Positions 1,786 to 30,325 of a stretch of 32,000 nt of DNA are shown here, piece by piece (position 1 is the first letter of the stretch; each line of letters starts with the position of its first letter). The DNA lies in the NCBI GenBank assembly GCA_002688505.1, contig CP024013.1, positions 210,001 through 242,000 of the forward strand. Direction: 5' to 3'. A program made the position numbers and the translations under genes. The stretch comes from Candidatus Saccharimonadota bacterium (lineage in GTDB: Bacteria > Pseudomonadota > Gammaproteobacteria > Enterobacterales > Enterobacteriaceae). The notes below the pieces were generated by a model. The model was not told the DNA's origin, made no database searches, and was given only the letters and a program-made list of their open reading frames with translations.

Positions 1786-1792
1786 TATATTA

Positions 1793-5287: not shown

Positions 5288-7100
5288 AGTTAATAATTTT
5301 TTATTAAATGCTTATAAAAAAAAAGAATTAAATTTAATAGATATAAATTTTTCTAAATTATTTTATTTTAAAAAAGATAATAATAGTTATATATATATAT
5401 TATTTGCTTGTATATTAAGTTTATCAAACAGGTTAGGTCATATTTTTGTATATTTAAATGATTTTTTTAATAAAAATATTTTTTTTTCTAAATATATTTT
5501 AGAATTTTTATATTTTTTTTTTAATAAACATATTAAAATTAAAAATTGTATAAATTTAATGTTGGATTGTTATATTATTAGTTTATGATTTAATAAAAAA
5601 AATACTCCTTTTATTTTATATAATGATTGTATTTATTTATATAAAAATTGATATTATGAAAATTATGTTATAACTTATTTAAGTAAAAATTTTTATGTTA
5701 AATTTAAAAAAGATATATATTTAAAATATTTAAATATATATATTAAAAATTTAAATTTAAATTTGAATTTTAAAAAAATTATATTAAGTTCTATTTTTAA
5801 TAAAATTACTATAATTACTGGTTCTCCAGGTACAGGTAAAAGTACTTTAATTATTAAAATAATAATTTTATTATATAAAATATTTAAATTTAAAGATAAA
5901 AATAGTATTATTTTATTATCTCCTACTGGTAAATTATCTTCATGATTAACTGACTGTTTAAATAATATTTATAATTTATTAAATATTAGTAATGATTTAA
6001 AAGAAATTTTACCTAGTAAATGTTTAACTATACATAAATTTTTAGGATTTAATTATTTATATAATTATCTAAAATTTAATAAAAATAATAAAATATTATC
6101 AAATTATATAATTATAGATGAGTGTTCTATGATTAGTTTAAATATTTTTTATAATATATTATCATCTTTAAATAGTTATACTAAATTAATATTAATAGGA
6201 GATTATAATCAATTAGATTCTGTTGAATCTATTTCTATATTTAATAATATTTGTAATATTATTTATGATAATTTTTTTTTTAAAGATTATCTTAATTGTT
6301 TTTTATATTATAAAAATATATTTATATTAAAGAAAAATTATCGTTATATTAATGATAATAAAAATATTGGTATTTTTTTAAACTTAATTAAAAATAAAGA
6401 TTATAATATTTTATATAAATATTTTTTAAATAATTCTTTTTCTAATATTATTTTTTATGATTCTAATAAATTTGGTTATGATTTTTTTTTAGATTTATGT
6501 ATTAAATTTTATAAAAATTATATAAATTTTATTTTATATAATTTTGATATAAATAAAATATTTAATATTTTTAAAAAAGATCAAATAATTTGTATATTAA
6601 AAGAAACTAAAAATGGTGTTTATTTCGTAAATAATTTAATTAATAATTATATATATAATTTATTTAAAAATAAATTTTTATTTAATTTTAATGATAAAAT
6701 TCATTTTTTAGGTGAACCTGTTTTAATTACTAAAAATAATAATGATTTAAAGTTATATAATGGTGATTTAGGTTTTTTTGTATCTGATAAAAAAAATAAT
6801 TTAAGATTATATTTTAATAAAAAGATAAATTATTTTCATCCATTTATATTATATAATAATTTAATAAATGCTTGATCAATAACAGTACATAAATCTCAAG
6901 GTTCTGAATATGATAATGTTTTGTTAATTTTACCTAATAAATTTATTAATATATTAAATAATAATATTATATATACTGCTTTAAGTAGATCTAAAAAAAA
7001 AATTATTATTTATGGTGATATAAATATACTAATTAATAGTATAAAAGTAATTTATAATAAAAATACTAATTTTAGAAAAAGATTAAATATATATTGTTAA
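5277..7100 (+). CDS. recD: Exodeoxyribonuclease V alpha subunit RecD, 607 aa
   Basis: Track ORFs 5277-5588, 5763-5945 and 6129-6875 are in one frame and joined only by TGA. The frame continues past TGA 6873-6875 to TAA 7098-7100. Motifs: ITGSPGTGKST (Walker A), IIIDECSMISL, LILIGDYNQLDSVE, TVHKSQGSEYDNVLLILP. The ATG overlaps the recB 3' end by 11 nt. Confidence 0.9.
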
Positions 7101-7826: not shown

Positions 7827-10332
<2,506 letters not shown>

Positions 10333-10352: not shown

Positions 10353-12066
10353 ATTTAATTATATTTTTATTTTTTATTATATTTAAATTATGATTTTTAT
10401 ATTTTATTCTATTACATATAAAATATTTTTGAATTTTAAATTTTAATAAATTTTTTTTTATATATTCATATATTTTTTTTATTATATTTATTATTATATT
10501 ATTATTATTAATTTTATTAAATGTTATATTTTTGTTTTTTTTCATATTTTTTTTTTTATTAAATTTATTATATAATTTTATTAATTTTGTTTTTTTTTTA
10601 TATTTTATTTTTTTTTTATGTTTAATTCTTAAAATTGAAAAATTTGGTGTTTGAATATTTTTATTAGGTAATATTATAGTTTTAATATTTTTTTTTTTAA
10701 TATTATATAGAATATCTTTTTTTTTTTTTAATAAATAATATCCTATATTAATAGGAACTATAACATGTATTTCTTTTGTGTTTTTTTTAAAAGATTTTTC
10801 TTGTATAGTTCTTAAAATTAAAAGCGATAAAGATTTATTATCTCTTATAATACCTTCTCCTTTACATCTTGGACAAATATAGTAGCTTGATTCTTTTAAT
10901 GATGGATTTAATCTTTGTCTAGACATTTCTAATAAACCAAATTTAGATATATATCCTATTTGGGTTTTAGCTTTATCTTTATTAATTATTTTTCTAAATT
11001 TTTTTTCTACTTTTTTTTGATTTTCAAATATAGACATATCTATAAAATCTATAACTATTAATCCTCCTAAATCTCTAAATTTTAATTGTTTAGCTATTTC
11101 TTTAGAAGCTTCTAAATTAGTATTTAATGCTGTTATTTCTATATTTTTTTCTTTATTAGATTTTGAAGAATTAACATCTATAGATGTTAAAGCTTCATTT
11201 ATATCTATAGTTATAGAACCTCCTGAGGGTAATCTTACTTCTCTATTAAAAGCAGATTCAATCTGATTTTCAATTTTAAAATAAGTAAATAATGGTATTT
11301 CTTTTTTATATAATTTAATTTTATTTAATATATCAATTTTATTTATTTTTTTAATATATTTTATTGCAGATATATAAGTGTTTTTATTATCTATAATTAT
11401 TTCTTTTATGTCATTATTTAAATAATCTCTAAATATTCTTGTAAATATATCATTTTGTTTATATATTAAACTAGGTGATTTATTTTCTTTAAATTTTTTT
11501 TTAATATATTTTCAAATTTTTAATTTTATTGATAAGTCTAATTTAAATGTATCTATAGATTTTCCTAATCCTGAAGTTCGAATTATTAATCCCATTTTTT
11601 TAGGTATTTTTAATTTTTTTAAAATTTTTTGTATTTTTTCTCTTTCTTTTCCTTCTATTTTTCTAGATATACCTATAATGTTATTATTTGGCATTAAAAT
11701 TAAATAATTACCTATTAAATTTATAAATGTTGTTAAAGCAACACCTTTATTACCTATTTGTTCTCTAGTTATTTGTATTATTAATTCTTGTCCTTTATAT
11801 AAATAATTAATATTATTATTTTTTTTATTAATAAAATATTTAGGTGAAATTTCTTTTAATGGTAAAAATCCTTTTTTTGATTCTCCATAATCTATAAATA
11901 CTGCTTCTAAACTAGGTTCTATTCTTATAATTTTACCTTTATAAATATTAAATTTTTTTTTTTTATATTTGTTGTTTTCTATATTTAAATCATATAATTT
12001 TTTATTATTTATTATTGCTATTCTAAGTTCTTCTTTTTGAGTAGCATTTATTAACATTTTTTTCAT
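10333..12066 (-). CDS. rne: Ribonuclease E, catalytic N-terminal half only, 577 aa
   Basis: Track ORFs 11512-12066 and 10333-11037 share a frame. The interval between them contains only the TGA at 11512-11514. N-terminus MKKMLINATQKEELRIAIINNKKLYDLNIE...IYKGKIIRIEPSLEAVFIDYG matches E. coli Rne ([30 protein letters not shown], recalled). Catalytic blocks SIDVNSS and DLGGLIVIDFIDM and the Zn-link CPRCKGEG are present. The gene is divergent from rluC as in E. coli. Confidence 0.9.
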
Positions 12067-12185
12067 ATAATTTTATATTTATTTTAAATGATTTATTTAT
12101 TAGTATATAATAATGTATAAATAAATTATTATTATTTTATAATATTTTATATATTTATTTTATTTTAAAATAAAAACATAATTAT

Positions 12186-13151
12186 ATGTATAATAAATTT
12201 TTTATAAATTTTTTTAAAATTGGTATTAATGATGTTAATCAAAGATTAGATAATTTTCTATTTAAAAATATTAAAAATTTACCTAAAAGTAAAATATATT
12301 CTTTAATTAGAAAAGGTAATATAAGAGTTAATAATAGTAGAATATGTTTTAATTATAAATTAAATATTAATGATATATTACGTATTCCTTTAATAAATTT
12401 TAAAAAAAAAAATAAATTTTTATATTTAAATAAAAGTATTATAGATAAATTTGTTAATAGAATTATATATGAAGATAATTATTTAATATTAGTTAATAAA
12501 CCTTCAGGTATTAGTGTTCATGATGGTAATAAAGTTAGATTAAATTTAATTGATATTTATAGAAGTTTAAAATCAAATAAATATTTAAATTTAGTACATA
12601 GACTTGATAAGTACTCTTCAGGTTTATTATTAATTTCTAAAAACAGAAATATACTAGTAAATCTAAATAATCAATTTAAATATTCAAATATTATTAAAAA
12701 ATATTATATATTAGTTTATGGTAATTGGCCAAGAGAAATTTATAAAGTATCAAAATTTATATTTAAATATAAAAAAAAAGGTTATATAATAAGTAAAAAA
12801 CAAGAGTTTTATAAAAATATAAAATTAAAATGATCTTTAACTTATTTTAAAATTATAGAATATATTAATAATTTTACTTTATTAAATGTTTATCCTGTTA
12901 CAGGTAGATTTCATCAAATTAGATTGCATACTAGTTATATAGGTTATCCAATATTGTTTGATAATTTATATGGAAATAGGTACTTAAATAAAAAATTATA
13001 TATAAAAAATATTAGTAGATTATTTTTACATTGTAATTATATTTCATTTTTTCATTATTTTCTTAATAAAAGAATATTTTTTAATATTAAATTAGAAAAT
13101 GATTTATATTATATATTAAATGTAATTAAGAAAAATAATATTATTAATTAG
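12186..13151 (+). CDS. rluC: 23S rRNA pseudouridine synthase, RluA family with S4 domain (RluC-like), 321 aa
   Basis: Track ORFs 12186-12833 and 12924-13151 are in the same frame, joined through TGA 12831-12833. Motifs HRLDKYSSGLLLISKN and TGRFHQIRLH are present. Divergent arrangement with rne supports rluC. The gene ends at TAG 13149-13151. Confidence 0.85.
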
Positions 13152-13154
13152 GAG
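13151..13154 (+). promoter_or_regulatory. Shine-Dalgarno-like GGAG for rpmF
   Basis: GGAG lies 5 nt upstream of the rpmF ATG (13160). Its first G is the last base of the rluC TAG stop. G-rich tetramers are rare in this sequence, so this one stands out. Confidence 0.5.
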
Positions 13155-13159
13155 TTAAA

Positions 13160-13336
13160 ATGGCTGTTCAAAAAAGTAAAAAAAGTAGATCTAAAAGAGG
13201 TCATCGTAGATCACATAATAATAATATAAATATACCTTTATTTGTTTTTAATAATAGAACTAATAAATATAATTTATATCATCATGTTGATGAAAATTAT
13301 ATAATTAATAGAAAAAATAAATTATTAATTAAATAA
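13160..13336 (+). CDS. rpmF: 50S ribosomal protein L32, 58 aa
   Basis: Not in the track because it is under 60 aa. MAVQKSKKSRSKRGHRRSHNN... matches E. coli L32 ([21 protein letters not shown], recalled). The stop is TAA 13334-13336. Confidence 0.93.
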   Translation: MAVQKSKKSRSKRGHRRSHNNNINIPLFVFNNRTNKYNLYHHVDENYIINRKNKLLIK

Positions 13337-14864
13337 AAAATTTTTCTTTATTTATTTTTAATAAAAATAAACTTAAAGAATATATTATTATTGTATATAT
13401 AAGTAATAATAGAATTTTTATAATTCTTTTATAAATATTAAATTTTATAAATATTTTTTCTAAATTATTAGTTAATTTATTTAGAAATAATAATATTAAT
13501 AAATTAGATATAAAAATTTTAATTATAAAATTTTTTCATTTATATTTATGTTTAAACATTTTTTTTCTAATTAATTGTATATATAATAAAAAACAATTTA
13601 AATATGAAGATATTATTATTGATATTGATATTCCTATATATTTAAATATTTTTATAGTAAAAATATTAATTATTTGTGAAAATATTAATATAAAAATAGA
13701 TATTTGATTTGGTATATTAATATTATGTTGAGAATAATAACATGGTATAAAAATTTTATTTAATATTAAAGCTGTAAGTCCTATAGAGTATATATTTAAT
13801 ATTTTAGATGTCATAATTACATCTAAATATTTAAATTTTCCATATTTAAAAAATGTTATAATTAATAATTTTGATGATATTAAAAAGAATATAGATATTG
13901 GTATACTTAATAATAAAATTGTTTGTAAATATTTTTCTATTAATTTATTATATCCATTTATATCTTTTTTATTATATTTATTTGATAATTTTGCTAATAA
14001 TAATGTTCCTGTCATTGTACCTAAAATACTTAATGGTAATTCTATTAATTTATCAGCATAATATATTCATGATATCGATCCTTCTTTAAAGTATGAAGAT
14101 AAATTATTATTAATAATTTGTGATATTTGATATATTAATATATTTAATATTGTTGGTATAAATTTTTTAATAATTGTAAATATTCCTTTATGTAAAAAAT
14201 TTATTTTACTAATATTAATTTTTATTGGTATTTTTCTTATATATATATTTTGTATTGTTAACTGTATTATTCCTCCTATTATTATTGGTATACTTAATGA
14301 AGTTATTGATATATTTAAAAATTTACTTATAAATATACTAAATACAATTATATTAATATTAGTTATTAATTGTATTGTAATAATAGGATAAATAATATTT
14401 CATAAATTTATTATTGATGCTAAGAAATAAGATAAAGATATTAATATTATAAATGGTATTGTATAATTAAATATTTTATTTGTTAATTCTAATTTTTTAT
14501 AATTATTTTTAAATCCTGAGTATATAATTAATATTATTTTATTAGAGAAAGTGATACATATTATTGTTAATATAAATAATACTAATATTAGTATAAAATA
14601 CATTGAACTTATTAGTTGTTCTAAATTTTTTTTTTTTTTTTTAAATTTATATTTACTTAATATTGGTATAAATATATATGATAATGTACCTTCTGTAATA
14701 ATTTTTCTAAATAAATTTTGTATTTTAAATGATGTATAAAAAGAATCTGTATGTATATTAATTCCAAATTTATTAGCTATAACTATATCTTTTATAAATC
14801 CAATAATTTTTACAATAAAAGTTAATAAACTGATTTTAATTATGTTAAATAATATATTATTCAT
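13329..14864 (-). CDS. murJ: Lipid II flippase MurJ (MviN), 511 aa
   Basis: Track ORFs 14400-14864 and 13536-14015 share a frame. I checked 13329-14400 codon by codon. In-frame TGA occur at 14400, 14067 and 13536, and the real stop is TAA at 13329-13331. N-terminus MNNILFNIIKISLLTFIVKIIGFIKDIVIANKFG...DSFYTSFKIQNLFRKIITEGTLSYIFIPILSKY parallels E. coli MurJ. The table-4 length equals the E. coli length (511 aa, recalled). The tail after TGA 13536 is hydrophobic and looks like transmembrane segments. Confidence 0.9.
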
Positions 14865-14972
14865 ATTAATTTTTTTAAAATTATTTAAATTATTTTTAAC
14901 AATTTATTAATTAAATTAATTAATATTTTATATTTTAAAAAATATTTTTATATTATTAATTTATATTTATTT

Positions 14973-15392
14973 TTACATTTTATAAATTTTATTTTTTATA
15001 TATAATTCAATTTTTTGTATTATAATTTTTTTAGTAATATTTATATATTTAAATAAATTAATTTTTTTAAAAATCTTTATAAAGTTTATATTTATAATGT
15101 ATTTTTTTGTTTTATTATTACATATTGATAAAATTATAAATAATATTCCTTTAACTATTAAAGTATTACTATCGGCATTAATATTAAATTTTTTTTTATA
15201 TTTTTTTATTTTTAATCATATACTATTATAACATCCATATATTATATATTTTTTTTTTCTTAAATTTTTATTGTTTATTGGTAAATATTTACTTAAATAT
15301 ATTATATAATCTATTTTTTCTTCTGAATTAATACATAAATTAATTTCTTTAATAATTTTTTTAATATTAAATAATTTATTTATTTTTTTCAT
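14973..15392 (-). CDS. sufE: Cysteine desulfuration protein SufE, 139 aa
   Basis: Absent from the track because of one in-frame TGA. Translation: MKKINKLFNIKKIIKEINLCINSEEKIDYIIYLSKYLP...IYGCYNSIWLKIKK...ADSNTLIVKGILFIILSI. This parallels E. coli SufE (EEKYLYIIELGQRLP, IQGCQSQVWI, GDSDAAIVKGLIAVVFIL, recalled), including the persulfide-acceptor Cys. It lies directly downstream of sufS. Confidence 0.85.
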
Positions 15393-15401
15393 ATATATAA
15401 T

Positions 15402-16633
15402 CTATTTAATTTTTTTAATTATTTTTTTTAAGTAAAAAATAAATGTATTTATATCTTTTTTAGAATTATATAAAGCTATTGATATTCTACATACACCTGG
15501 TAAATTATAAAATTTAATTATTGGTATTGCACATTGATTACCTGTTCTTATACATATTCCATATTGATTTAATAAAAATCCTATATCATAACAATTACAA
15601 TTTTTTATATTAAATGATATTATTCCTATTCTTGGTTTTGTTCCGTATATTATAATTTCAGGTAATAGTTTTAATTTATTTATTAAGTATTTTGTTAATT
15701 TTTTTTCATATTTAATAATATTATTTATTTTTATATATTTAATATATTTAATAGCATATTTTAAACTAATTATTGATTCTACATTATATGTACCTGATTC
15801 AAATTTTCATGGTGAATTTATAAAATTTATATTTTTTATTATATTATTTTTAATATTTATATTTGATATTATTCCTCCTCCAAATTGTCATGGATTTAAT
15901 AATTCTAAAAGTTTTTTTTTTCCATATAATATTCCTATTCCATTCAGTGAATACATTTTATGTCCTGAAAAAACATAAAAATCACAATTTAAATTTTTAA
16001 CGTTTATTTTAATATGTGATATAGACTGAGATCCATCAATTATTGTTAATATTTTTTTTTTTTTGCTATTTTAATAATTTTTTTTATAGGATTTATTATA
16101 CCTAATATATTTGATACATGTGTTATAGATAATATTTTAGTATTATTATCTATTAATTTTTTAAAATGTTTTATATCTAATTTACCATTTTTTTTAATTT
16201 TTATTATTCTTAATTCTAAATTTAATTTTTTTGATATATAATATCATGGTACTATATTAGAATGATGTTCCATTAAAGATATAATAATATTATCTTTTGG
16301 TTTAGTAAATTTTTTTGTAATTATATTAGATAATAAATTTATTCCTTCAGTAGTATTTTTTATAAAAATAATTTCTTCTGGTGAGTTAGAATGTATAAAT
16401 TTACTAATTTTTATTCTTATTTCTTCTATAGAATTTGTATTTATATTACTTAAAGTATAAATTCCTCTATTTATTGATGAATATTTAGTTTTTATAAATT
16501 TATTTACTGATTCAATAACTAATTTAGGTTTTTGTACGGTAGTAGCATTATCTAAATATATTATTTTTTTATTATTTATTCTTTGTTTTAGTATAGGAAA
16601 ATCTTTTTTTATTTTTTTAATATTTAAATTCAT
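15402..16633 (-). CDS. sufS: Cysteine desulfurase SufS, interrupted by a single frame change inside an A13 tract (span 1232 nt, which is 3n+2)
   Basis: The N-terminal frame (ATG 16631-16633, through TGA 16244-16246) reads ...MEHHSNIVPW...ILSITHVSNILGIINPIKKIIKIAKKKKY and stops at TAA 16046-16048. The C-terminal part is in the adjacent frame and is open from 16070 down to TAG 15402-15404. It reads KKKKILTIIDGSQSISHIKINVKNLNCDFYVFSGHKMYSLNGIGILYGKK...FESGT...CIRTGNQCAIP...CRISIALYNSKKDI. The PLP-lysine motif SGHK and the catalytic-Cys motif RTGxxCA are intact. Both frames were checked codon by codon. Confidence 0.9.
16052..16064 (-). repeat. A13 homopolymer on the coding strand (T13 on +), site of the sufS frame change
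   Basis: Counted directly from the + strand: a, then 9 t, then 4 t, then gct, between 16051 and 16067. The two sufS reading frames overlap only across 16046-16073. Confidence 0.9.
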
Positions 16634-17658
16634 TTTAGTAATTCTTTTATAATAATATTGTTAATTAATTTATTTAAATTTTTTATTTTTATATATTTTA
16701 ATATGTTTTTAATAAAAGAAAATGATATTATTTTTTTTATATTATTAAAATTAATTCCTTTATTAAGTAAATAAAATATAATATTTTTATTTATATTTGT
16801 CATTGTTATTTTATGTTTACATTTATTATATTTATTAAATATTTTTATTTTTGGGTTATTTATAATATTAAATTTTTTAATTGTATATAAATTTTTATGT
16901 ATTATATATGAAATAGAGTTTTTAGCTTTTTTATTAATTTTTATTAACGAATTTATTAATATATTGCTTTTTTTATTTATTAAACAATTATGTTTATAAA
17001 TACTTTTTGATATTTTAAATTTATGTATAATTTTATTATAAAAAATAAATTTATTTTTATTGTTTGGTATTGAAATAGTATTAATATTTAAATTAGATTT
17101 TTTATTTAAATAAAATTTAGATTTAAATTTTATTTTTTTTATATTTAAGTTTATATTAATTATTTTTAATGATGATTTTTTATTTAAATTTATATAATAA
17201 TCTATATTATATACAGAAGATTTTTTGTTTATTAATAAATATATATAATATATATATGATAATTTTTTTATATTTATATAATATTTATATTTTATATTAT
17301 TATTTTTTTTAATTAAAATATGTTGTTCAATAAAATAAATTTTTGTATTTTTTTTTATATTTATATATATTATATTTTTTATTTTTTTATTTAAATTATT
17401 TATTAATATAAAATATATAATTTTTTTTATATTTTGATTTTTAAATATATTAAATATAAATGAAATTATATTATATTTTTTTATTTTTTTTATATTTAAT
17501 ATTTTAATTAAATTTTTATATGTATAGTAAATATTTTCATTTATAATTAATATTTTAATTGATTTTAATTTATATATTTTTTTTATAATATATTTTTTTG
17601 TTTTTTTATTAAATTTATTAATATTTAATATATTTTTTATGTTATTTGTATATATCAT
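16624..17658 (-). CDS. sufD: Fe-S cluster assembly protein SufD, 344 aa
   Basis: This is track ORF 16630-17658 extended through TGA 16630-16632 to TAA 16624-16626. The sequence is very degenerate. The C-terminal block CKHKITMTNINKNIIFYLLNKGINFNNIKKIISFSFIKNIL matches the SufB/SufD C-terminal signature (H-x-ATVGxLD-x-LFYLxSRGI...A..L...F, recalled). Its position between sufC and sufS supports the call. Confidence 0.75.
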
Positions 17659-17670
17659 ATTAAATAATAT

Positions 17671-18363
17671 TTATTTTATTGTTTTAATTTTACCTTTTTT
17701 TATTAAATATATATAATTAGGTTTAATATTTTTAATAAAATTATTATTATGAGTAATAATTAAAAAAGATTTTTTTTTTTTTTTTAAATATTTAATTATA
17801 GAAATAGTTTTTTTTATTGTTTTTTTATCTAATCCTGAATCTATTTCATCTAAAATTATTAATTTAGGTTTAAATAATAATATTTGTAATATTTCATTTT
17901 TTTTTTTTTCTCCTCCTGAAAATCCTTTGTTAAAGGATCTATTTAATAATTTTTTTGGAAAATTTATTTCTTTTATTTTTTTATTTAAAAATTTTTTAAA
18001 TTCTATTATATTTAATATTTTTTTATTTCTGTATTTTCTTATATAATTAAAAGTTTTATATAAAAAATATTGGGTTTTTAATCCTGGAATTTCTATATTT
18101 TCTTGAAATGAAATAAATAATCCTTTTCTTGCTCTTTCATCAATAGATAAATTTTTAAGATTTATATTATTAAATAAGATTTTACCTTCTAAAATATTAT
18201 ATTTTTTATTTCCAGCTATTGTTGATACTAAAGAACTTTTTCCTGATCCATTATTACCTTTTAGAATATGTATTTCGCCTTTTTTTATATTTAAATTAAT
18301 ATTATTAATTATTATTTTATTTTTTATTTTTATTTTTAGATTTTTAATTTTTAATAAATTCAT
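17671..18363 (-). CDS. sufC: Fe-S cluster assembly ATPase SufC, 230 aa
   Basis: Complete track ORF. Walker A GNNGSGKSS, ABC signature FSGGEKKKNEILQ and Walker B LIILDEIDSGLD are present. LFISFQENIEIPG matches E. coli SufC (IFMAFQYPVEIPG, recalled). The stop is TAA. Confidence 0.93.
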   Translation of the reverse strand: MNLLKIKNLKIKIKNKIIINNINLNIKKGEIHILKGNNGSGKSSLVSTIAGNKKYNILEGKILFNNINLKNLSIDERARKGLFISFQENIEIPGLKTQYFLYKTFNYIRKYRNKKILNIIEFKKFLNKKIKEINFPKKLLNRSFNKGFSGGEKKKNEILQILLFKPKLIILDEIDSGLDKKTIKKTISIIKYLKKKKKSFLIITHNNNFIKNIKPNYIYLIKKGKIKTIK

Positions 18364-18387
18364 ATAGATATATATTTTAAAAATAAA

Positions 18388-19761
18388 TTATAAATCAATA
18401 AATAGTATTTCTTTAGCTTCTAAATAAAATTCTAATGGTAACATATTTAATATATTTTTACAAAATCCATTAATTATCATAGATATAGCATTATTTTTTT
18501 TAATTCCTCTTTGTAGTAAAAAATAAAGTTGTGATTTTTTTATATAATTTGAACTTGCTTCATGTTCAATAATTGAATTACCATTTTTAACTTTTATTTT
18601 TGGAAAGGTATAAAATTTACATTTATTAGATAATAGTAATGAGTCACATTTAGTAAAGTTTACTGATTTATTAGAATTTTTTTTAATTATAATTAAATTT
18701 CTATTAGTATTTTTACTATAATTTGATAAAATATTTTTTGAAATTATTAATGATTTAGTTTTATTTCCTATATGTATAACTTTATTACCTGTATCGGATT
18801 GTTGTTTATTTTTTGTTATAGATATTGAATAATAATTACTTATACTTTTATTACCAAGTAATATAGTACTTGGATATTTTCAATTTATAGCTGATCCTTT
18901 TTCTAATTGTATTCAATTTATTTTACTTTTATATCCTAAACATAATGCTCTTTTAGTAACAAAATTTAATACACCTTTATTATTTTTTTTGTTTACATAT
19001 CAATTTTGTATAGTACAGTATTTTATAAATGATTTTTTTTTTAATATAATTTCTACAACTGCAGAATGTAATTGTTTTTTTTTTTTTATTATTGCAGTAC
19101 ATCCTTCAATATAATTTAAATATGTTTTATTTTCTAATATTATTAAGGTTCTTTCAAATTGTCCTAAATTAGGTGTATTAATTCTAAAATATGATGATAA
19201 GTCTATTGGACATTTTACATTTTTTGGTATATATATAAAAGTTCCATCTGAAAAGACACATGTATTTAATATAGAAAAGAAATTATCATCAATAGGTACT
19301 ACTCTAAACATATATTTTTTAACTAATGAAGGATATTTTTTTAAAGCTTTGTTAAAAGAACAAAATATAATTCCTAATTTTAATAATTTATTTTCATATG
19401 AAGTATTAATTGATACGCTATTAAGTATAGTGTCTATACCTATATTTTTTTTTAATATATTTAAATTTTTTAATATATTTTTTTTTTGTTTATTATTTAA
19501 TTTTATATGTGAATAATATTTATATTTTTGATAATTTATTTTTTTATATTTTCCATTAAATCATCTAGGTTCTTTTGTTTTATTTCATATTTTATATGCT
19601 TTTAATCTTATTTTAAGCATTCAATTAGGTTCATTTCTTATTTTAGATATTTGTTTTATTATTTTTTTATTTATACCTTTTTTTAATTCTTTATATGTAT
19701 AATTTTTTTTATTTAATTTTTTATTTATATTTAATTTTATTTTACTATTTTTAATAAACAT
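18388..19761 (-). CDS. sufB: Fe-S cluster assembly scaffold SufB, 457 aa
   Basis: The track shows only 19000-19311. I checked 18388-19776 codon by codon: a single frame with 8 in-frame TGA, ATG at 19759-19761 and TAA at 18388-18390. The C-terminus ...HEASSNYIKKSQLYFLLQRGIKKNNAISMIINGFCKNILNMLPLEFYLEAKEILFIDL has the typical SufB ending (LPMEFAVEA..L, recalled). Confidence 0.9.
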
Positions 19762-19773
19762 TCTAATATTTAT

Positions 19774-20772
19774 TTAATTTGTAATTAAATCTTTACAAAT
19801 TTTATTTAAAGAAATTTTATTTATATTATTTAATGTAGTTTTAGATATATTTATTAATGCTTCTTTAGTTAAGAATGCTTGATGTCCTGTTATTAATACA
19901 TTATAATATGACATTAATATATTAAAAATATTATCTTTAATAATTTTATTTGTATTATTTTTAAAGAAAATATTTTTTTCATTTTCATATACATCTATAG
20001 CTATTCCTTTGATTTTCTTATTTTTAATAGCTTTTATTAAAGATTTTGAATCAATTAATTCACCTCTACTTGTATTAATTATTAATACATTTTTTTTCAT
20101 TTTTTTAATATTATCATAATTAATCATATGATGATTATTTTTATTATATGGACAATGTAAAGTTATTATATCAGAATATTTGTATATTTTATTTAAAGAT
20201 GTATATTTAGCACCATATTTTTCTATTATAGGATATTTAATTATATCAAAAGCTATAATTTTCATTTTAAAACCTTTTAATATTTTAATTAGTTCTTGTC
20301 CTATTTTACCTGTTCCAATAATTCCTATAGTTTTTTTATACATATTAAATCCTATTAAATTATTTAATTTAAAATTTTGATTTTTAGAATTTTGATATGC
20401 TATGTGTATTTTTCTATTTAAATTTAATATCAAACTTAATGTATATTCAGCTATAGATCTAGGTGAATAAGATTTTACATTTATAACTTTTATTTTATTT
20501 TTATTTGCTAATTTAATATTTACGTTATTAAATCCTGTACATCTTAAAGCTATTATTTTAATATTATATTTTTTTAATTTATAAATTATTTCTTTATTTT
20601 TAGCATTATCGTTTACAAATATACATATATAATTATATCCTTTAGATAATTTAACAGTTTTTTTATTTAATTGTTTTTTTGTATATTTTATATAAAAATT
20701 AAATTTTTTATTAATTTTATTAAAATATTTTATTTCGTATTTTTGAGTACTATAAAATAAAATTTTATTCAT
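19774..20772 (-). CDS. ldhA: D-lactate dehydrogenase / D-isomer 2-hydroxyacid dehydrogenase (LdhA-like), 332 aa
   Basis: Complete track ORF with no TGA. It is collinear end to end with E. coli LdhA as I recall it: YSTQKYEIKYF, ICIFVNDN, IALRCTGFNNV, NRKIHIAYQ, GIIGTGKIG (NAD fold), ITLHCP, IINTSRGELID (Arg), AIDVYENE (Glu), LITGHQAFLTKEAL (His). Confidence 0.88.
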   Translation of the reverse strand: MNKILFYSTQKYEIKYFNKINKKFNFYIKYTKKQLNKKTVKLSKGYNYICIFVNDNAKNKEIIYKLKKYNIKIIALRCTGFNNVNIKLANKNKIKVINVKSYSPRSIAEYTLSLILNLNRKIHIAYQNSKNQNFKLNNLIGFNMYKKTIGIIGTGKIGQELIKILKGFKMKIIAFDIIKYPIIEKYGAKYTSLNKIYKYSDIITLHCPYNKNNHHMINYDNIKKMKKNVLIINTSRGELIDSKSLIKAIKNKKIKGIAIDVYENEKNIFFKNNTNKIIKDNIFNILMSYYNVLITGHQAFLTKEALINISKTTLNNINKISLNKICKDLITN

Positions 20773-20983
20773 TATTATATATAAATATTTATTTATATGT
20801 TAGTTATTATTATATATATTATATATTATTTTAAATTTTATTATTAATTTAATTTATTTTTATGATATATTATTTATTATAATTTTATTTTATTATTTTT
20901 AGTTATTTTAAAAAAATATTTTAAATTATATTTTAACTTATTAAAATTTTTGTTAGTATATTAAAATAATTTTATTTATTAAT

Positions 20984-21412
20984 ATGTTTATATTATGTTT
21001 TGATTTTGGAATTAATAATATTGGTATAGCAATAGGTCAATTTTATACTAGAACTGCTAGTCCTATAGTTAGTTTAAAAGCTTGTAATGGTATACCAGTT
21101 AATTGAAAATTTATTAAAGATCTTATTAAAGATTGATCAATAAAGAAGATTGTTATTGGATATCCTAAAATGTCATATTATAAAAATTTTAATAATAATC
21201 TATTTATAAAATATATTAATAAGTTTGTTATTATATTAAAAAAGAAATTTAAATTAAAGGTTTTTTTTTCTGATGAAAATTATACTTCTTATGCGGCTCG
21301 TAATTTTATAAAAACAAAAAATATGTTTTATAATTTATTCTATTCAAATAAAAGTATACATTCAATTTCTGCAGTTTATATATTAGAATCATGATTAAAA
21401 ATAAATAAATAA
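20984..21412 (+). CDS. ruvX: Putative pre-16S rRNA nuclease / Holliday-junction-resolvase-like protein YqgF (RuvX), 142 aa
   Basis: The ATG at 20984 is in frame with track ORF 21170-21394. In-frame TGA occur at 21104, 21134 and 21392, and the real stop is TAA 21410-21412. MFILCFDFGINNIGIAIGQ...IPVNWKFIKDLIKDW..KIVIGYP...DENYTSYAA...SISAVYILESW parallels E. coli YqgF (LAFDFGTKSIGVAVGQ...DERLSTVEA...SASAVIILESYF, recalled). Confidence 0.85.
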
Positions 21413-21418
21413 AATTAA

Positions 21419-22366
21419 TTATTTTTTGTTTTTTAGTCTTAAATGAAATATTAAGTTTAATATATCATTAGGTATTTTAGAATCTATTTTAATTAAATTA
21501 TTATTTATTGGATGTTTAAATTTTATTCTTGAAGCATGTAATGCTTGTCTATCTAATTTTTTTATTAAAATATTTATATTTTTTGAAATTTTATATTTTT
21601 TTATATTTTTATTTGTGTATATTTTTTCACCTACTATTGGATGATTAATATAATTCATATGTACTCTTATTTGATGTGTTCTACCAGTAATTAATTTTAT
21701 TTTTAGTAGTGTACAAAAACTAAATGTTTCTATTACATTATAATAAGTTATAGCTTTTTTTCCTTTTTTATTGATACACATTCTTGTTCTATTATATTTA
21801 TTTCTACTTATAGATTTTTTTATAATTCCATTATTATTTATTATTCCATATACTATAGTTTTATATATTCTTATTATTTTTTTTTTTTTTATATAATTTT
21901 TTAATTTTAAATAACTTAATATATTTTTAGCTACAAGTATAATACCTGTAGTATCTTTATCTAATCTATGTATTATTCCATATCTTGGTAAAATTTTATT
22001 AGATTTATAGTAAAACATTAATGAATTCATAATAGTATTATTTTTATTACCATAGCCTGGATGAATTACAGTGTTTTTATTTTTATTTATAATTAATAAA
22101 TATTTGTCTTCATATATTTTTTTAAATAATATTTTATTTAATGCTATATATTTATTTTTAATTATTTTTATAAATATTTTAATTAAATCATTTTTATTGA
22201 TTTTTTTACTAGGTTTTGTAATTATTTTATTGTTTACATAAACATTTTTATTTTTAATTAAATTAATAATTTTATTTCTAGAATATTTTTTAATTAAATA
22301 TTTTATATTAATATCTAATCTTTTATTTTTTAAAGTATTTTTTATTTTAATATAAATATATTTCAT
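21419..22366 (-). CDS. rluD: 23S rRNA pseudouridine synthase RluD-like, 315 aa
   Basis: Complete track ORF ending in TAA. It has an N-terminal S4-like region with KRLD. Motifs HRLDKDTTGIILVAKN and TGRTHQIRVHM are present. Confidence 0.85.
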   Translation of the reverse strand: MKYIYIKIKNTLKNKRLDINIKYLIKKYSRNKIINLIKNKNVYVNNKIITKPSKKINKNDLIKIFIKIIKNKYIALNKILFKKIYEDKYLLIINKNKNTVIHPGYGNKNNTIMNSLMFYYKSNKILPRYGIIHRLDKDTTGIILVAKNILSYLKLKNYIKKKKIIRIYKTIVYGIINNNGIIKKSISRNKYNRTRMCINKKGKKAITYYNVIETFSFCTLLKIKLITGRTHQIRVHMNYINHPIVGEKIYTNKNIKKYKISKNINILIKKLDRQALHASRIKFKHPINNNLIKIDSKIPNDILNLIFHLRLKNKK

Positions 22367-22405
22367 AAATTATTTTTTTTTTAATTATTAATAATAATTT
22401 ATTTA

Positions 22406-23803
22406 TTATTTACCTATACAAAAATTTTTAAATATATTATTTATAATTTTGTTTGAAATAGATTTTTTAATACCTAATATAGAATTTAATAATTTTTGAG
22501 AAATTAATAATTTTTGTGATATTATATCTAGATTTATATATTTAATATTATGTTTTGTAATATTTTTCATTAATTTTATAATACTTTTTATATTTTTTAT
22601 ATTTTTATTAAGTAAATAATTGTGTCTTTCATTACAATAAAATTTATTTTCTGTATTATTTATATATTTTATTTTATTTTTTATTATTTTTTTAATTTTA
22701 TTTATACCTATATTTTTTTTTATAGATGTATTTATTATATTAATATTATTTATTTTAAATTTTCTAGTTTTTTTTTTTGTTAGATCTATTTTATTTCTTA
22801 TTAAAATTATTTTCTGATTTTTATTTATATATTTAATTATTTTATTATATTCATTTAATATTTTATTTTTAGATGTTAATTTTGCATCTAACATAAATAT
22901 TATTATTGTTGAATTTTTTATTTCTTGTATAGTTTTTTTTATTCCTATTTTTTCTATTATATTATTTGTTTTTCTTATTCCTGTTGTATCTGTAATTTCT
23001 ATATTTATATTTTTAATAGTTATATAATCTTTTATTATATCTCTTGTAGTTCCTGGTATATTAGTTATTATTGAATTATTTTTATTTGTTAATTTATTCA
23101 TTAAACTTGATTTTCCTACATTAGGTTTGCCTATAATTGTTATTTTAATACCTTCATTATTTATAATATTAAATTTACTTTTTTTATATATTTTATTTAT
23201 ATTTTTATATATTTTTTTAATATTTTTTTTAATATATTTAAAATTTTTATAAGATAATTCATTTTCAGAAAAATTTATTTCTTTTGTTATTATAGTATTT
23301 ATATAATTTATTGATTTTATATTTATGTTTATTTTTTTTGAAAATTTACCTTTTAATGATATTAATGATAAATTTATTTGATTTGATGAGTTTGAATTTA
23401 TAATATTATTAATAGATTCTGCTTGTATTAAATCTAATTTTTGATTTAAAAAAGCTCTTTTAGTAAATTCTCCTGGTTTAGCTAATCTTATATTTTTAAT
23501 TTTTAAATTTAAAATTTCTTTTATAATTTTTTCTATTATTTTTTGTCCTCCGTGACATTGAAGTTCTAATACATCTTCACCTGTAAAAGATTTAGGAGAT
23601 TTATAATATATAGCTATACCATAATCCATTAATTTTTTTTTTTTATTTAAGAATTTACAAAATTTTGCATATCTAATTTTAGGTATTTTACCAATTATAA
23701 TTTTAGCAATTTTATTTGATTTTCTACCTGATATTCTTATTATACCTATACCTCCATTACCAACAGGAGTTGTTTGTGATATTATAGTTTTTAAAAATTT
23801 CAT
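22406..23803 (-). CDS. mnmE: tRNA modification GTPase MnmE (TrmE), 465 aa
   Basis: Complete track ORF. N-terminus IISQTTPVGNGGIGIIRISG, G1 motif GKPNVGKSSLMN, DTTGIR, and the diagnostic C-terminal FCIGK are present. It is adjacent to yidC-rnpA-rpmH as in most bacteria. Confidence 0.92.
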   Translation of the reverse strand: MKFLKTIISQTTPVGNGGIGIIRISGRKSNKIAKIIIGKIPKIRYAKFCKFLNKKKKLMDYGIAIYYKSPKSFTGEDVLELQCHGGQKIIEKIIKEILNLKIKNIRLAKPGEFTKRAFLNQKLDLIQAESINNIINSNSSNQINLSLISLKGKFSKKININIKSINYINTIITKEINFSENELSYKNFKYIKKNIKKIYKNINKIYKKSKFNIINNEGIKITIIGKPNVGKSSLMNKLTNKNNSIITNIPGTTRDIIKDYITIKNINIEITDTTGIRKTNNIIEKIGIKKTIQEIKNSTIIIFMLDAKLTSKNKILNEYNKIIKYINKNQKIILIRNKIDLTKKKTRKFKINNINIINTSIKKNIGINKIKKIIKNKIKYINNTENKFYCNERHNYLLNKNIKNIKSIIKLMKNITKHNIKYINLDIISQKLLISQKLLNSILGIKKSISNKIINNIFKNFCIGK

Positions 23804-23838
23804 AAAATTATTATATTTTATATTAAATATTTATTATT

Positions 23839-24624
23839 TTATAATATTATATTTAAAATATTATTTGTTATATTATAAATCAATATACTACAAGGTATTT
23901 TAAATAATATATATATAAAAATCATAGATATTACTATTTTTAGTATATAGTAATTATTTTTATAATTTATTAAAATTTTTTTATAATATAAATATATTGA
24001 TATTCCTAATAATATTTGTAAAATATAATATTTATCATAATTAGATAGATTATTAATTCATAAAAATATTAAGTTATTATTATATTTAATATTATTTAAT
24101 ATTTTATATATTAATATAAATGTAAATATATTAATTAAGTTATATAATATATTATATATAAAGTATATTTTATTTTTTAAATATATTTTTTTTATATTTA
24201 TAATATTTTTGTTATTAGTATTTAATTTTTTTTTGTTTATAGAATATATATTTTTTATTTTATTTATTAAATATAAAAATAATTTTATAATAATTGATAT
24301 AACTACAATAGTTATTATTCAATCTTTGTAAATATAATTAATATAATATATTATATTAATTATTATATTTATAAGAAAAAAATTTTTTTTAGTAAAAAAT
24401 ATATTATTATTTTTTATTATTTTATTTAATTTATTTATAATATCTAGTTTTGTTTTTTTTTTTATATAAATTATTTTTTTATTATTTATATTTTTATTTA
24501 TTATTTTATTATTAATAATAATATTTTTATTTTTTAAATTTAAATATGTATTATTAAAATATTTTATTATAAATATAAAAAGAAAAGTTATTAATAGTGA
24601 GTAAAGAAATTTTTTATAATACAT
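23839..24624 (-). CDS. yidC: Membrane protein insertase YidC, minimal form of 261 aa lacking the large periplasmic P1 domain
   Basis: This is track ORF 24319-24624 extended codon by codon through TGA 24319-24321 and 24058-24060 to TAA 23839-23841. IFLWINNLSNYDKYYILQILLGISIYLYYK parallels E. coli YidC [62 protein letters not shown] parallels [35 protein letters not shown] (both recalled). Its position between rnpA and mnmE supports the call. Confidence 0.75.
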
Positions 24625-24633
24625 TTATTTGTT

Positions 24634-24990
24634 TTAATTTAAAATTTTTATTTTTCATATTTTATTTATATATTTATTAAATATTTTTTTATTTATTTTA
24701 GTAATACTATTATTTATTTGAAATATAAAATCTATTTTTTTAATTTTAAATTGATTTATTCTAAAATTTTCATATATTTTTCTTTTAATTTTATTTCTTA
24801 ATGTTGATAATTTTATTTGTTTTTTTTTAATTATTATTTTAATTCTTGGATATTTTAAGTTATTTAATTCATAATATATTATAAAAGGTTTAAATATTTT
24901 TATATTTTTTAATTTATTTTTGTTTTTAATTTTCATTTTTTTTTTGAAAAATAATCTTTTTAAGATGATAATTTTTTTCTTTTTTTTCAT
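24634..24990 (-). CDS. rnpA: RNase P protein component RnpA, 118 aa from the first ATG
   Basis: This is track ORF 24655-24990 extended through TGA 24655-24657 to TAA 24634-24636. [33 protein letters not shown] matches the RnpA RNR motif region (HPRIGLTVAKK...ERNRIKRLTRESFRL, recalled). The start is uncertain: ATG 24990 overlaps rpmH by 31 nt, and the alternative in-frame ATG at 24936 avoids the overlap. Confidence 0.78.
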
Positions 24991-25094
24991 CTTCTATTTG
25001 ATAATATTTTTCTTCCACTTTTTTTAGACATTCTTTTTAAGAATCCATATTTTCTTTTTCTTTTTATTTTTGATGGTTGGTATGTTCTTTTCAT
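24960..25094 (-). CDS. rpmH: 50S ribosomal protein L34, 44 aa
   Basis: Not in the track because it is short. [44 protein letters not shown] matches E. coli L34 ([39 protein letters not shown], recalled). There is one in-frame TGA. The stop is TAA 24960-24962. Confidence 0.92.
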
Positions 25095-25169
25095 TTTTTT
25101 TAAATTTTATTTAATATTTATAATTTAAATTATTATATTATTAATAATATATAATATTATAAATTATTT
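25095..25169. promoter_or_regulatory. Divergent rpmH/dnaA intergenic spacer (75 bp); presumed promoter region and possibly origin-proximal
   Basis: This is the only noncoding DNA between the rpmH-rnpA-yidC-mnmE block (-) and dnaA-dnaN-gyrB (+). It is composed of A and T only. No specific element could be called. Confidence 0.3.
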
Positions 25170-26612
25170 ATGTGTAAATATGGGGTTATTTTGTTAAAAA
25201 ATTTATGAAATAAATGTTTATTAGAGTTAAAAAAATATATATCTATTTATGAATTTAATATTTGGATATTACCCTTACAGGTATTAATTTATAATAATAT
25301 TATAAATTTATATTCTCCTAATAAATTTGTTATTAAACATATTAAAAAAAATTATTTAATTTATATAAATAATTTTTTTTTAAAATATTGAAAATATAAA
25401 AGAATAAAACCTATTTTAAATTTTTTAATTGGAAGTATAAATAATAGTAATAAAAATAATTTATTTAAAAATAATTTTATTTATTTAAATAGTAAAAAAA
25501 ATAAATATAATTCATATGATTTTAAAGAATTTAATAATTTTAATTTATTAAAGAAGTATAGTTTTGATAATTTTATATATAATAAATCTAATATTTATGC
25601 ATATAAAAAATCCATAAAAATATGTAATTTAAATAGTAATTTTAAGTATTTATTTATTTATTCAAAAGTTGGTTTAGGTAAAACTCATTTATTAAATTCT
25701 ATAGGTAATAGGATTAATTATTTATATAATGGTAAAAAAAGTATTTTTTATATAAATATGAAAGTCTTTTTAAGTAAAATTGAATATTTTTTATATAAAA
25801 ATTTAATTGAAAATTTTATATTTTATTTAAAATCTTTTTCTATTTTTTTAATTGATGATATACAATTTTTATATAATAAAAAATTAATTCAAAATAAATT
25901 TTTAAATATATTTAATATGTTATTTAAATATAATAAATTTATAATTTTAACATCTAATTGTAATGTAAATAAATTAAAAGGTATAAATAATGAAATAATT
26001 TCTAAATTGTATTATAATTTTGTATTTATAAAAATTAATAATTGTGATATAAATTTAAGGTATAAATTTTTAATTAGTAAGTGTAAATATATTAATTTTT
26101 GTTTAGATAAAAAAATATTATATTTTATATCTGAATATTTAAATTCAAATTTTTATGAATTAGAAAATATATTATATTTAATATATGTAAATGCTATTAA
26201 TTTAAATTATATTAATAAAATAAATATTAATTTTATTAAATATATATTATATAAATTTATTTTAAATAATAGTAATTATAATTTAAATGTTAAAATATAT
26301 GATATACAAAAAGTAGTTTGTAATTATTATAATATAACTATTGATAATTTATTGTCTAAATATCGTTATAAATCTTTTGTATGACCAAGACAAATATCAA
26401 TAGCTATAAGTAAAAAATTAACTAATTATAGTTTAATAAAGTTAGGATTATATTTTGGTGGTTTAAGTAATTCTTATATTTTATATTCTTATAATAAAAT
26501 AAAAAAATTATATATGAATAATTCTAAAGTTAAATTAGAATTTAATAATTTAATAAAACTTATTGTTTATTATAAAAATGAAATTTATTATAAAAAAAAA
26601 AAAATTAATTAA
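25170..26612 (+). CDS. dnaA: Chromosomal replication initiator DnaA, 480 aa, strongly diverged
   Basis: ATG 25170 is the first in-frame ATG after a TAA at 25152. The frame was checked through TGA 25206, 25389 and 26382 to TAA 26610-26612. LKNLWNKCLLELKKYISIYEFNIWILPLQ parallels E. coli [28 protein letters not shown]. Walker A is SKVGLGKTHLL and Walker B is FLIDDIQF. Domain IV reads IQKVVCNYYNITIDNLLSKYRYKSFVWPRQISIAISKKLTNYSL..LGLYFGG. Confidence 0.9.
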
Positions 26613-27723: not shown

Positions 27724-27756
27724 TTAATTTTATTAAATTTTATTGTAGAGATAAAT

Positions 27757-30162: not shown

Positions 30163-30168
30163 TTAAAT

Positions 30169-30241
30169 CTCCTCCGACTGGATTCGAACCAGTGACATAC
30201 GGATTAACAGTCCGTTGTTCTACCAACTGAACTACAGAGGA
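30169..30241 (-). tRNA. tRNA-Asn (anticodon GUU), no encoded CCA
   Basis: The reverse complement folds by eye as a cloverleaf: acceptor tcctctg/cggagga, D arm gttc-agttggta-gaac, anticodon arm acgga-ctGTTaa-tccgt, T arm actgg-ttcgaat-ccagt, discriminator g. It starts 6 nt after the gyrB stop. Confidence 0.9.
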
Positions 30242-30325
30242 ATATAAAGTTATTATATATTTAATATATTTTTTTGTCAAAATTTTTAGTTAATTTTTTA
30301 TATATTTATAGTATAATAATTTTAT

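What the first reader, a model, noticed from the sequence alone, without database searches (positions are those of the whole stretch)
16046..16073. sufS is split by a frame change inside an A13 tract while the rest of the suf operon is intact
The N-terminal frame runs ...IIKIA-KKKK-Y and then hits TAA at 16046-16048. The C-terminal 222 codons lie in the neighbouring frame, open from 16070 to TAG 15402-15404. They carry the PLP-lysine SGHK and the catalytic Cys (RTGNQCA). The two frames overlap only across the A13 run (16052-16064). The span is 1232 nt (3n+2), so one extra A would give a 410-aa SufS reading ...IAKKKKILTIIDGSQ, collinear with E. coli ...GAKVLVDGAQ. The second frame has no usable start of its own; its first Met is inside SGHKMY. 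sufB, sufC, sufD and sufE are all intact, which argues the pathway is under selection. Candidate explanations are homopolymer sequencing or assembly error, transcriptional slippage restoring the frame in some mRNAs (described for poly(A) tracts in Buchnera/Blochmannia-type endosymbionts), -1 ribosomal slippage on A AAA AAA, or a recent pseudogene.
Basis: partly seen in the sequence, partly recalled or inferred. Interest (0 to 1): 0.7.

Follow-up and report, generated by a model that had tools for sequence, protein, structure and literature searches.

The report
sufS frameshift in a poly(A) run
In this beetle-symbiont genome the essential gene sufS is broken by one missing A in a 13-A run, but an independent assembly of matching reads shows at least 14 A's there, so the break is most likely a sequence-length error or a minority variant, not gene loss.

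Summary
On the minus strand, sufS starts at ATG 16633. It leaves frame inside A13 (16052-16064), hits TAA at 16048-16046, and continues in the -1 frame to TAG 15404-15402. One extra A gives a 410-aa SufS collinear with E. coli SufS.

The window is Candidatus Stammera capleta (12.5% GC, TGA=Trp). About 37 other Stammera SufS proteins are intact. The literature ranks sufS among the 20 most constrained core genes. On the window's own branch, both halves of sufS still show purifying selection.

Two results point to a homopolymer-length miscall or a non-fixed allele:
- A Logan contig from run SRR6147586 is 100% identical to window 11935-16064 and ends inside the tract with 14 T's where the window has 13. 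The two contigs from that run match the window's length at the 15 other runs of 10 nt or more that they span.
- In a sister genome (CP144843.1), leuS is "broken" at an A13. The Logan assembly of a matching run has A12 and an intact leuS, and this is the only difference in 18.8 kb.

If A13 is real, the known rescue is RNA-polymerase slippage or ribosome sliding on poly(A). That has been described for Buchnera and Blochmannia. Interest is low to moderate.

The parts
15402..16633 (-). Whole sufS locus (type II cysteine desulfurase). It is 1232 nt (3n+2), and 1233 nt / 410 codons plus stop if the tract is A14.
   Evidence: The repaired protein matches Aminotran_5 positions 1-371 (E 1.2e-124) and E. 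coli SufS 6ndn (E 9e-115).
16046..16633 (-). N-terminal reading frame: ATG 16633 to TAA 16048-16046, 195 aa ending ...IIKIAKKKKY. It contains one in-frame TGA=Trp (16244-16246).
16052..16064 (-). Sense-strand A13 tract (T13 on the + strand), where the frame changes. Collinearity with relatives predicts A14 (GCA AAA AAA AAA AAA ATA).
   Evidence: Logan contig L021 shows 14 T here and then ends.
15402..16070 (-). C-terminal reading frame (-1 relative to the N frame): 222 codons to TAG 15404-15402. No ATG, GTG or TTG before Met 39.
15957..15968 (-). SGHK motif containing the PLP-binding lysine.
   Evidence: It aligns to SGHK of E. coli SufS.
15528..15548 (-). RTGNQCA motif containing the catalytic cysteine.
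   Evidence: It aligns to RTGHHCA of E. coli SufS.
14973..15392 (-). sufE, 139 aa, intact under code 4.
   Evidence: PF02657, E 8.9e-19.
16624..17658 (-). sufD, 344 aa, intact. Its last 10 nt, stop codon included, overlap the start of sufS.
   Evidence: SUFBD_core, E 2.6e-23.
17671..18363 (-). sufC, 230 aa, intact. It contains in-frame A16 (17770-17785) and A13 (17897-17909) tracts.
18388..19761 (-). sufB, 457 aa, intact under code 4. It contains an in-frame A13 (19075-19087).

Best explanation
sufS is a functional, strongly constrained gene. The single-base deficit in its poly(A) tract is most likely not the fixed state of the organism. Either the deposited assembly under-called an A14 homopolymer as A13, or A13 is one of several tract lengths present in the sequenced symbiont population.

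Inferred history. Two substitutions toward A (GCT to GCA, and AAY to AAA) fused an interrupted Lys/Asn stretch (GCT AAA AAA AAY AAA ATA in the closest relatives) into an uninterrupted run of 14 A's. Runs of that length are unstable in replication, in PCR and sequencing, and in assembly.

Shown: the anatomy, the conservation, the selection signature, the disagreement with an independent assembly, and the precedent in a sister genome. Inferred: that the true or majority length is 14.
For: 1. Independent assembly of a matching read set. Logan contig SRR6147586_7 (L021) is 100% identical to window 11935-16064. Its last 31-mer is ATCAATTATTGTTAATA followed by 14 T, so it has at least 14 bases where the window has T13 then G.
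2. Agreement everywhere else. The two contigs retrieved from that run (L020, L021) span 15 other A/T runs of 10 nt or more, including A17, A14, A13 and A12, with the same length as the window and no indels.
3. Calibration of contig ends. At three other tract-associated Logan contig ends (rne T12, sufB A10, and an A10 at the start of L018), the run in the contig equals the deposited length. Only at sufS is it longer.
4. Precedent. CP144843.1 has leuS split into 582 + 239 aa at an A13. The Logan assembly of a matching run (SRR23946987) has A12 and an intact 841-aa leuS. That is the only difference in 18,846 bp.
5. Constraint across the genus. About 37 other Stammera SufS proteins are intact at 409-428 aa. 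sufS is a single-copy core gene among the 20 lowest dN/dS of 124 genes in 50 Stammera genomes (10.1101/2023.12.12.571295).
6. Constraint on the window branch. SufS has 24 unique amino-acid changes per 1000 sites, against 51 for 13 neighbouring genes. Synonymous:nonsynonymous changes are 9:5 upstream and 12:5 downstream of the shift, like the intact orthologues.
7. Frame maintenance. 14 of the 15 tracts of 12 nt or more in the window's genes are in frame. In 9 related loci, 117 tracts of 12 nt or more (not split into coding and intergenic) gave one tract-associated frame break among the genes compared, the contested leuS.
Against: - I could not see reads. The Logan contig stops inside the tract, so it gives a lower bound (14 or more), not a length.
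- The adjacent contig could not be retrieved.
- My reading of why the contig ends there rests on my understanding of de Bruijn graph assembly with k=31. It is not a tool result.
- SRR6147586 differs from the window by two SNPs in gyrB. It may therefore be a different sample or a mixed population, in which case A13 could be real in the deposited haplotype.
- Verified poly(A) frameshifts are common in AT-rich endosymbionts: 4-8 genes per Blochmannia genome (PMC3017870).
Confidence: 0.6

Rival explanations
1. The genome really carries A13, and full-length SufS is still made. RNA polymerase slips backward on the T13 template and adds one A in a fraction of transcripts. In addition or instead, ribosomes slide by -1 on the A run (GCA AAA AAA AAA AAA, then re-pairing so that ATA is read next). 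Both routes give the same 410-aa product, ...AKKKKILT.... This is the Buchnera/Blochmannia type of 'impaired and rescued' gene.
For: - There is a single indel inside an A run of 9 or more, in an otherwise perfect ORF with no rate acceleration. Those are the criteria used for Blochmannia (PMC3017870).
- Transcription insertions concentrate in A/T runs and rise exponentially with run length (PMC5574713).
- About 30% in-frame transcripts are reported for frameshifted genes (PMC3017870 citing Tamas 2008).
- E. coli ribosomes slide on A runs of 11 or more (PMC4363877).
- The genome tolerates in-frame A16-A17 runs in sufC, leuS and murJ, so expression through long A runs is routine here.
Against: - The Logan contig shows 14 or more bases at the site.
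- The shift is not shared with any relative, and the tract itself is lineage-specific.
- Frame is kept in 14 of the window's 15 tracts of 12 nt or more, and one tract-associated break was found among the 117 such tracts in related loci. Slippage therefore does not make frame irrelevant.
Confidence: 0.3
2. sufS is a very recent pseudogene in this one Stammera lineage. No functional SufS is made, and Fe-S assembly is failing or is supplied in another way.
For: The deposited sequence has a frameshift with a stop two codons later. Indels in homopolymers are the usual first step of gene erosion in endosymbionts (PMC3017870).
Against: - There is no second lesion in 1232 nt.
- The half downstream of the shift shows the same purifying-selection pattern as the upstream half (12:5 against 9:5).
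- SufS is the best conserved protein of the region (91% to L015).
- sufB, sufC, sufD and sufE are intact.
- sufS is among the most constrained core genes of the genus.
- An allele with 14 or more A's exists in a matching read set.
Confidence: 0.05
3. The site is an evolved, programmed -1 ribosomal frameshift site (dnaX-like), or SufS is made as two separate polypeptides.
For: A AAA AAA is a classical slippery heptamer (established knowledge; review PMC5009743).
Against: - The 92 nt downstream have no stimulatory structure (z -0.10).
- The site is absent in all nine related sufS sequences examined: eight other Stammera genomes plus a Logan contig of one of them.
- The zero-frame product would be a truncated half of a PLP domain.
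- The C frame has no start codon before Met 39, which lies after the SGHK lysine.
- The break falls at Aminotran_5 profile positions 166-169 of 371, inside the domain.
Confidence: 0.02

Closest known systems
Poly(A)-tract frameshifts in Buchnera aphidicola and Blochmannia genes rescued by transcriptional slippage (Tamas et al. 2008 PNAS; Williams & Wernegreen 2010, PMC3017870)
   Same: An extremely AT-rich obligate insect symbiont. A single-base indel inside a long sense-strand A run, in an otherwise intact, slowly evolving essential gene. The same predicted rescue product.
   Different: Here the genomic length itself is in doubt, because an independent assembly shows 14 or more. The frameshift is not shared with any sister genome, whereas some Blochmannia frameshifts are conserved between species. 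No RNA data are available.
Homopolymer-length errors in short-read or metagenome-derived symbiont assemblies
   Same: The disagreement is confined to one long A/T run. A sister genome shows the same thing in leuS: A13 deposited against A12 in Logan.
   Different: The other long runs covered by the Logan contigs (up to A17) agree between assemblies. The error, if it is one, is site-specific and could instead reflect real length heterogeneity.
Ribosome sliding on lysine-encoding poly(A) (Koutmou et al. 2015, PMC4363877) and dnaX-type -1 frameshifting on A AAA AAG
   Same: An A run of 11 or more. The -1 direction is what is needed to join the two frames.
   Different: There is no stimulatory element and no conservation. 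Sliding is non-programmed and gives mixed outcomes.
E. coli SufS/CsdB (PDB 6ndn, 1i29), group II cysteine desulfurase of the sufABCDSE operon
   Same: The repaired protein aligns end to end with no gap at the junction, with a single 4-residue gap elsewhere. It has the SGHK lysine and the RTGxxCA cysteine, and the sufB-C-D-S-E gene order.
   Different: No sufA lies directly upstream of sufB. The protein is very Lys/Ile/Asn-rich and is translated under code 4.

Membership tests
SufS (group II cysteine desulfurase, Aminotran_5) | Full-length class-V aminotransferase fold | tested here: met
   profile positions 1-371 of 371 in the repaired protein, E 1.2e-124. The two halves cover 1-169 and 166-371.
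SufS (group II cysteine desulfurase, Aminotran_5) | PLP lysine (SGHK) and catalytic cysteine (RTGxxCA) aligned with E. coli SufS | tested here: met
SufS (group II cysteine desulfurase, Aminotran_5) | suf operon context with the SufE sulfur acceptor | tested here: met
   sufB-C-D-S-E are contiguous on the minus strand.
Slippage-rescued poly(A) frameshift (Buchnera/Blochmannia type) | Single indel within an A/T run of 9 nt or more, in an otherwise intact ORF | tested here: met
   A13, one base short, no other lesion.
Slippage-rescued poly(A) frameshift (Buchnera/Blochmannia type) | No acceleration of protein evolution in the frameshifted lineage | tested here: met
Slippage-rescued poly(A) frameshift (Buchnera/Blochmannia type) | Frameshift confirmed at the genomic DNA level | tested here: inconclusive
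   The Logan contig of SRR6147586 has 14 or more bases where the window has 13, and it ends there.
Slippage-rescued poly(A) frameshift (Buchnera/Blochmannia type) | Frameshift conserved among strains or species (the strongest cases) | tested here: not met
   all relatives are in frame and their tract is interrupted (AAY).
Slippage-rescued poly(A) frameshift (Buchnera/Blochmannia type) | Heterogeneous mRNA tract lengths, including in-frame species; full-length protein | not testable with these tools
   Needs cDNA amplicon sequencing and proteomics.
Programmed -1 ribosomal frameshift | Slippery heptamer X XXY YYZ in the zero frame | tested here: met
   A AAA AAA lies within the tract.
Programmed -1 ribosomal frameshift | Downstream stimulatory structure | tested here: not met
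   minimum free energy -9.8 kcal/mol, z -0.10 against shuffles.
Programmed -1 ribosomal frameshift | Evolutionary conservation of the shift site | tested here: not met
Assembly artefact at a homopolymer | Independent assembly of matching reads disagrees only at the homopolymer | tested here: met
   100% identity up to the tract, then 14 against 13. Sister-genome precedent. Caveat: this is a lower bound only, and it is not confirmed that the run is the same sample.

The most novel reading that the evidence does not exclude
The sufS tract, and perhaps the rne A12 and sufB A10 tracts where the Logan contigs also break, is genuinely length-polymorphic within the symbiont population of a host. Out-of-frame alleles of a top-constrained essential gene would then persist at appreciable frequency because polyploid cells or populations, RNA-polymerase slippage and ribosome sliding buffer them. 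In this 12.5% GC genome, with about two A/T runs of 9 nt or more per kb, reading frame at long A runs would be a population-level and expression-level quantity, not a fixed genotype.
Probability: 0.12. Interest if true: 0.6.

Novelty: not a real feature. Interest (0 to 1): 0.25.

Why it matters
SufS is the sulfur donor for the only Fe-S assembly operon found in this window, in a symbiont whose host depends on it for pectin digestion. A true loss would be remarkable. The evidence says the gene is not lost.

Practically, the finding flags a probable error in a reference genome, which would lead annotation to treat sufS as a pseudogene. It also flags a parallel error in leuS of CP144843.1.

More generally, frame calls at A runs of 12 nt or more in Stammera assemblies need read-level verification before they are used to infer gene loss or slippage rescue. 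If A13 does prove real, Stammera would be a further lineage with slippage-rescued genes, and one with far denser and longer A runs than Buchnera or Blochmannia.

Tried and rejected
- An exact DNA search of GTDB representative genomes for the tract plus flanks found nothing. The window's genome is not among the representatives.
- Look-ups of the window's SufC and SufD, to fetch the 271,175-bp record or the Logan contig on the other side of the tract, failed.
- The exact A14, A11 and A17 versions of SufS are not in the protein collection. No independently called full-length protein of this strain exists there.
- The Salem 2017 Cell paper and Tamas 2008 PNAS are not held. I could not check the sequencing technology of the reference genome or quote the slippage percentages first-hand.
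- A search for SRR6147586 in papers found nothing.
- The promoter and terminator scan was uninformative in this AT-rich DNA: 86 hits against 94 expected.
- The split-protein idea was rejected. There is no start codon, and the break lies inside the PLP domain.
- The old-pseudogene idea was rejected on the rate tests.
- The idea that long A runs are frame-neutral in this genome was rejected. 14 of the window's 15 tracts of 12 nt or more keep frame, and only one tract-associated break turned up in nine related loci holding 117 such tracts.

Full report
**Observation**

Reading the minus strand and translating with code 4 reproduces every element of the finding.
- sufS starts at ATG 16633 and runs 195 codons to ...IIKIAKKKKY, then TAA (16048-16046).
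- The neighbouring (-1) frame is open from 16070 for 222 codons to TAG (15404-15402).
- That frame contains SGHK (15957-15968) and RTGNQCA (15528-15548).
- The frames change inside a sense-strand A13 (16052-16064).
- The span is 1232 nt (3n+2). One extra A gives a 410-aa protein...IAKKKKILTIIDGSQ....
- The second frame has no ATG, GTG or TTG before the Met of SGHKM.

This is homology, not chance. Pfam Aminotran_5 covers profile positions 1-169 in the first half (E 4.8e-51), 166-371 in the second (E 2.4e-67), and 1-371 in the repaired protein (E 1.2e-124). The repaired protein aligns to E. coli SufS (6ndn, E 9e-115) with no gap at the junction.

**Context**

- The window is 12.5% GC and uses TGA for Trp. 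Three conserved Trp codons in sufS are TGA, and TGA:TGG is 41:5 in six genes.
- Related loci identify it as Candidatus Stammera capleta, the pectinolytic symbiont of tortoise beetles.
- Its proteins sit on an NCBI contig of 271,175 bp. From memory, that matches the 0.27-Mb Cassida rubiginosa reference of Salem et al. 2017.
- Code 4 in Stammera is already known (PMC8629427; PMC10540940).
- The gene order is sufB-C-D-S-E on the minus strand. All four neighbours are intact under code 4.

**Comparative evidence**

- About 37 other Stammera SufS proteins are intact, at 409-428 aa.
- At the tract position, the closest relatives read GCT AAA AAA AAY AAA ATA (AKKNKI). More distant ones read AKKNNI or ANKYNI. 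Two changes toward A created an uninterrupted run in the window's lineage. Collinearity predicts A14, and the window has A13.
- On the window's own terminal branch, SufS has 24 unique amino-acid changes per 1000 sites. The mean for 13 neighbouring genes is 51. The intact SufS of L015 and L001 have 32 and 44.
- Synonymous:nonsynonymous codon changes on that branch are 9:5 upstream and 12:5 downstream of the shift.
- The region after the shift has therefore been under purifying selection for essentially the whole branch. An old pseudogene is excluded.

**How unusual is the tract?**

It is not unusual. The window holds 66 A/T runs of 9 nt or more: 54 sense-A, 11 sense-T and one intergenic. Fifteen runs are 12 nt or longer, including A17 in leuS and murJ and A16 in sufC. 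Only the sufS run is out of frame.

Nine related 21-kb loci contain 117 runs of 12 nt or more. I did not split these into coding and intergenic. Among the genes compared, they gave a single tract-associated frame break, in leuS of CP144843.1 at an A13.

Frame is therefore maintained by selection even at very long runs.

**Is the frameshift real?**

Two independent-assembly comparisons bear on this.

1. The leuS break in CP144843.1 (582 + 239 aa) is absent from the Logan assembly of run SRR23946987, which matches that genome. There leuS is 841 aa. The two sequences differ at one position in 18,846 bp: A13 against A12 in that tract.

2. Logan contigs from run SRR6147586 match the window.
   - L020 equals window 19458-30772, with two substitutions and no indel.
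   - L021 equals window 11935-16064 at 100% identity and then ends. Its last 31-mer is ATCAATTATTGTTAATA plus 14 T, where the window has 13 T followed by G.
   - The two contigs span 15 other runs of 10 nt or more (A17, A14, A13, A12 and others) with the window's lengths.
   - At three other contig ends associated with tracts (rne T12, sufB A10, and an A10 at the start of L018), the run in the contig equals the deposited length.

My inference from how k=31 de Bruijn graph contigs terminate is as follows. A contig ending on [flank + T14] means the T13+G path was absent or pruned, and that the branch is between 14 and a longer length. This step is inference, not a tool result. It gives only a lower bound of 14.

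I could not retrieve the contig on the other side of the tract. The two gyrB differences (G to A at 29719 and 29752, giving V655I and G666S) leave open that the run is a different or mixed sample.

**Mechanism if A13 is real**

Passing from the N frame to the C frame needs either one extra A in the mRNA or a -1 shift of the ribosome. Both give the same protein.

- Backward slippage of RNA polymerase on A/T runs adds single bases, at a rate that rises exponentially with run length in E. coli and Buchnera (PMC5574713).
- Frameshifted Blochmannia and Buchnera genes are reported to yield about 30% in-frame transcripts (PMC3017870).
- E. coli ribosomes slide on A runs of 11 or more (PMC4363877).
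- Nothing suggests a programmed site. The 92 nt downstream fold no better than shuffles (z -0.10), and the site is lineage-specific.

**Verdict**

- The biological reading most consistent with the evidence is that sufS is functional and the one-base deficit is a homopolymer-length miscall or a non-fixed allele (about 0.6).
- A real A13 rescued by slippage or sliding is the main rival (about 0.3). It would be a new member of a well-known kind.
- A recent pseudogene is unlikely (about 0.05).
- A programmed frameshift or a split enzyme is very unlikely (about 0.02).
- Read-level tabulation of tract length is the decisive missing test.

Noticed in passing
L001/L017 (CP144843.1) about 17971-17983; L018 (Logan SRR23946987_795): leuS of a sister Stammera genome is split (582 + 239 aa) at an A13. 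The Logan assembly of a matching run has A12 and an intact 841-aa leuS. That is the only difference in 18,846 bp, so the deposited genome probably has a homopolymer error.
   Followed up: yes
L004 (CP144828.1) about 2740-2750: mnmE changes frame at ...GCA AAA CCC AGG TGA ATT... (expected AAA CCA GGT GAA). This is an extra C in a C run, not a poly(A). It could be a real pseudogene or an error.
   Followed up: partly
window 8651-8667 (leuS), 14626-14642 (murJ), 17770-17785 (sufC): In-frame sense A17, A17 and A16 runs lie inside essential genes. There are 66 A/T runs of 9 nt or more in 32 kb, 54 of them sense-A. AAA:AAG is 627:19. That is far denser than reported for Blochmannia (114-153 per genome of roughly 0.7-0.8 Mb, size from memory), and it implies heavy slippage or sliding load on normal expression.
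   Followed up: partly
window 26592-26604: An A13 run lies in the overlap of dnaA (tail ...YYKKKKIN*) and dnaN (head MKFIIKKKKLI...). A length change there would hit both replication genes.
   Followed up: no
window 29719 and 29752 (gyrB): The Logan contig of SRR6147586 has A where the window has G at both positions. Both changes are nonsynonymous (V655I, G666S) and lie 33 nt apart. These are the only substitutions in 15.4 kb compared, which hints at a second haplotype or a different sample.
   Followed up: partly
window 11953-11964 (rne T12), 19478-19487 (sufB A10), 16065-19458: Logan contigs of SRR6147586 end at these two shorter tracts as well as at the sufS tract, yet they pass A17 and A14 runs. 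The 3.4 kb between (sufS N half, sufD, sufC, most of sufB) was not recovered as a contig carrying the window's exact proteins. This suggests site-specific length heterogeneity or two haplotypes in the suf region.
   Followed up: partly
window 16244-16246, 15888-15890, 15807-15809 and throughout: TGA encodes Trp at conserved Trp positions (VPW, NPW, SPW in SufS). TGA:TGG is 41:5 in six genes. This is already published for Stammera, but any code-11 ORF list fragments most genes here.
   Followed up: yes
window 1-7100: Long ORFs of 594+ aa (partial), 1175 aa and 617 aa sit upstream of leuS. The 617-aa product's orthologues carry AAA_30 / UvrD_C_2 (RecD-like) domains in related loci. My recC and recB labels for the other two are guesses and were not checked against Pfam. 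If correct, this roughly 0.27-Mb genome retains a recBCD-like set.
   Followed up: no
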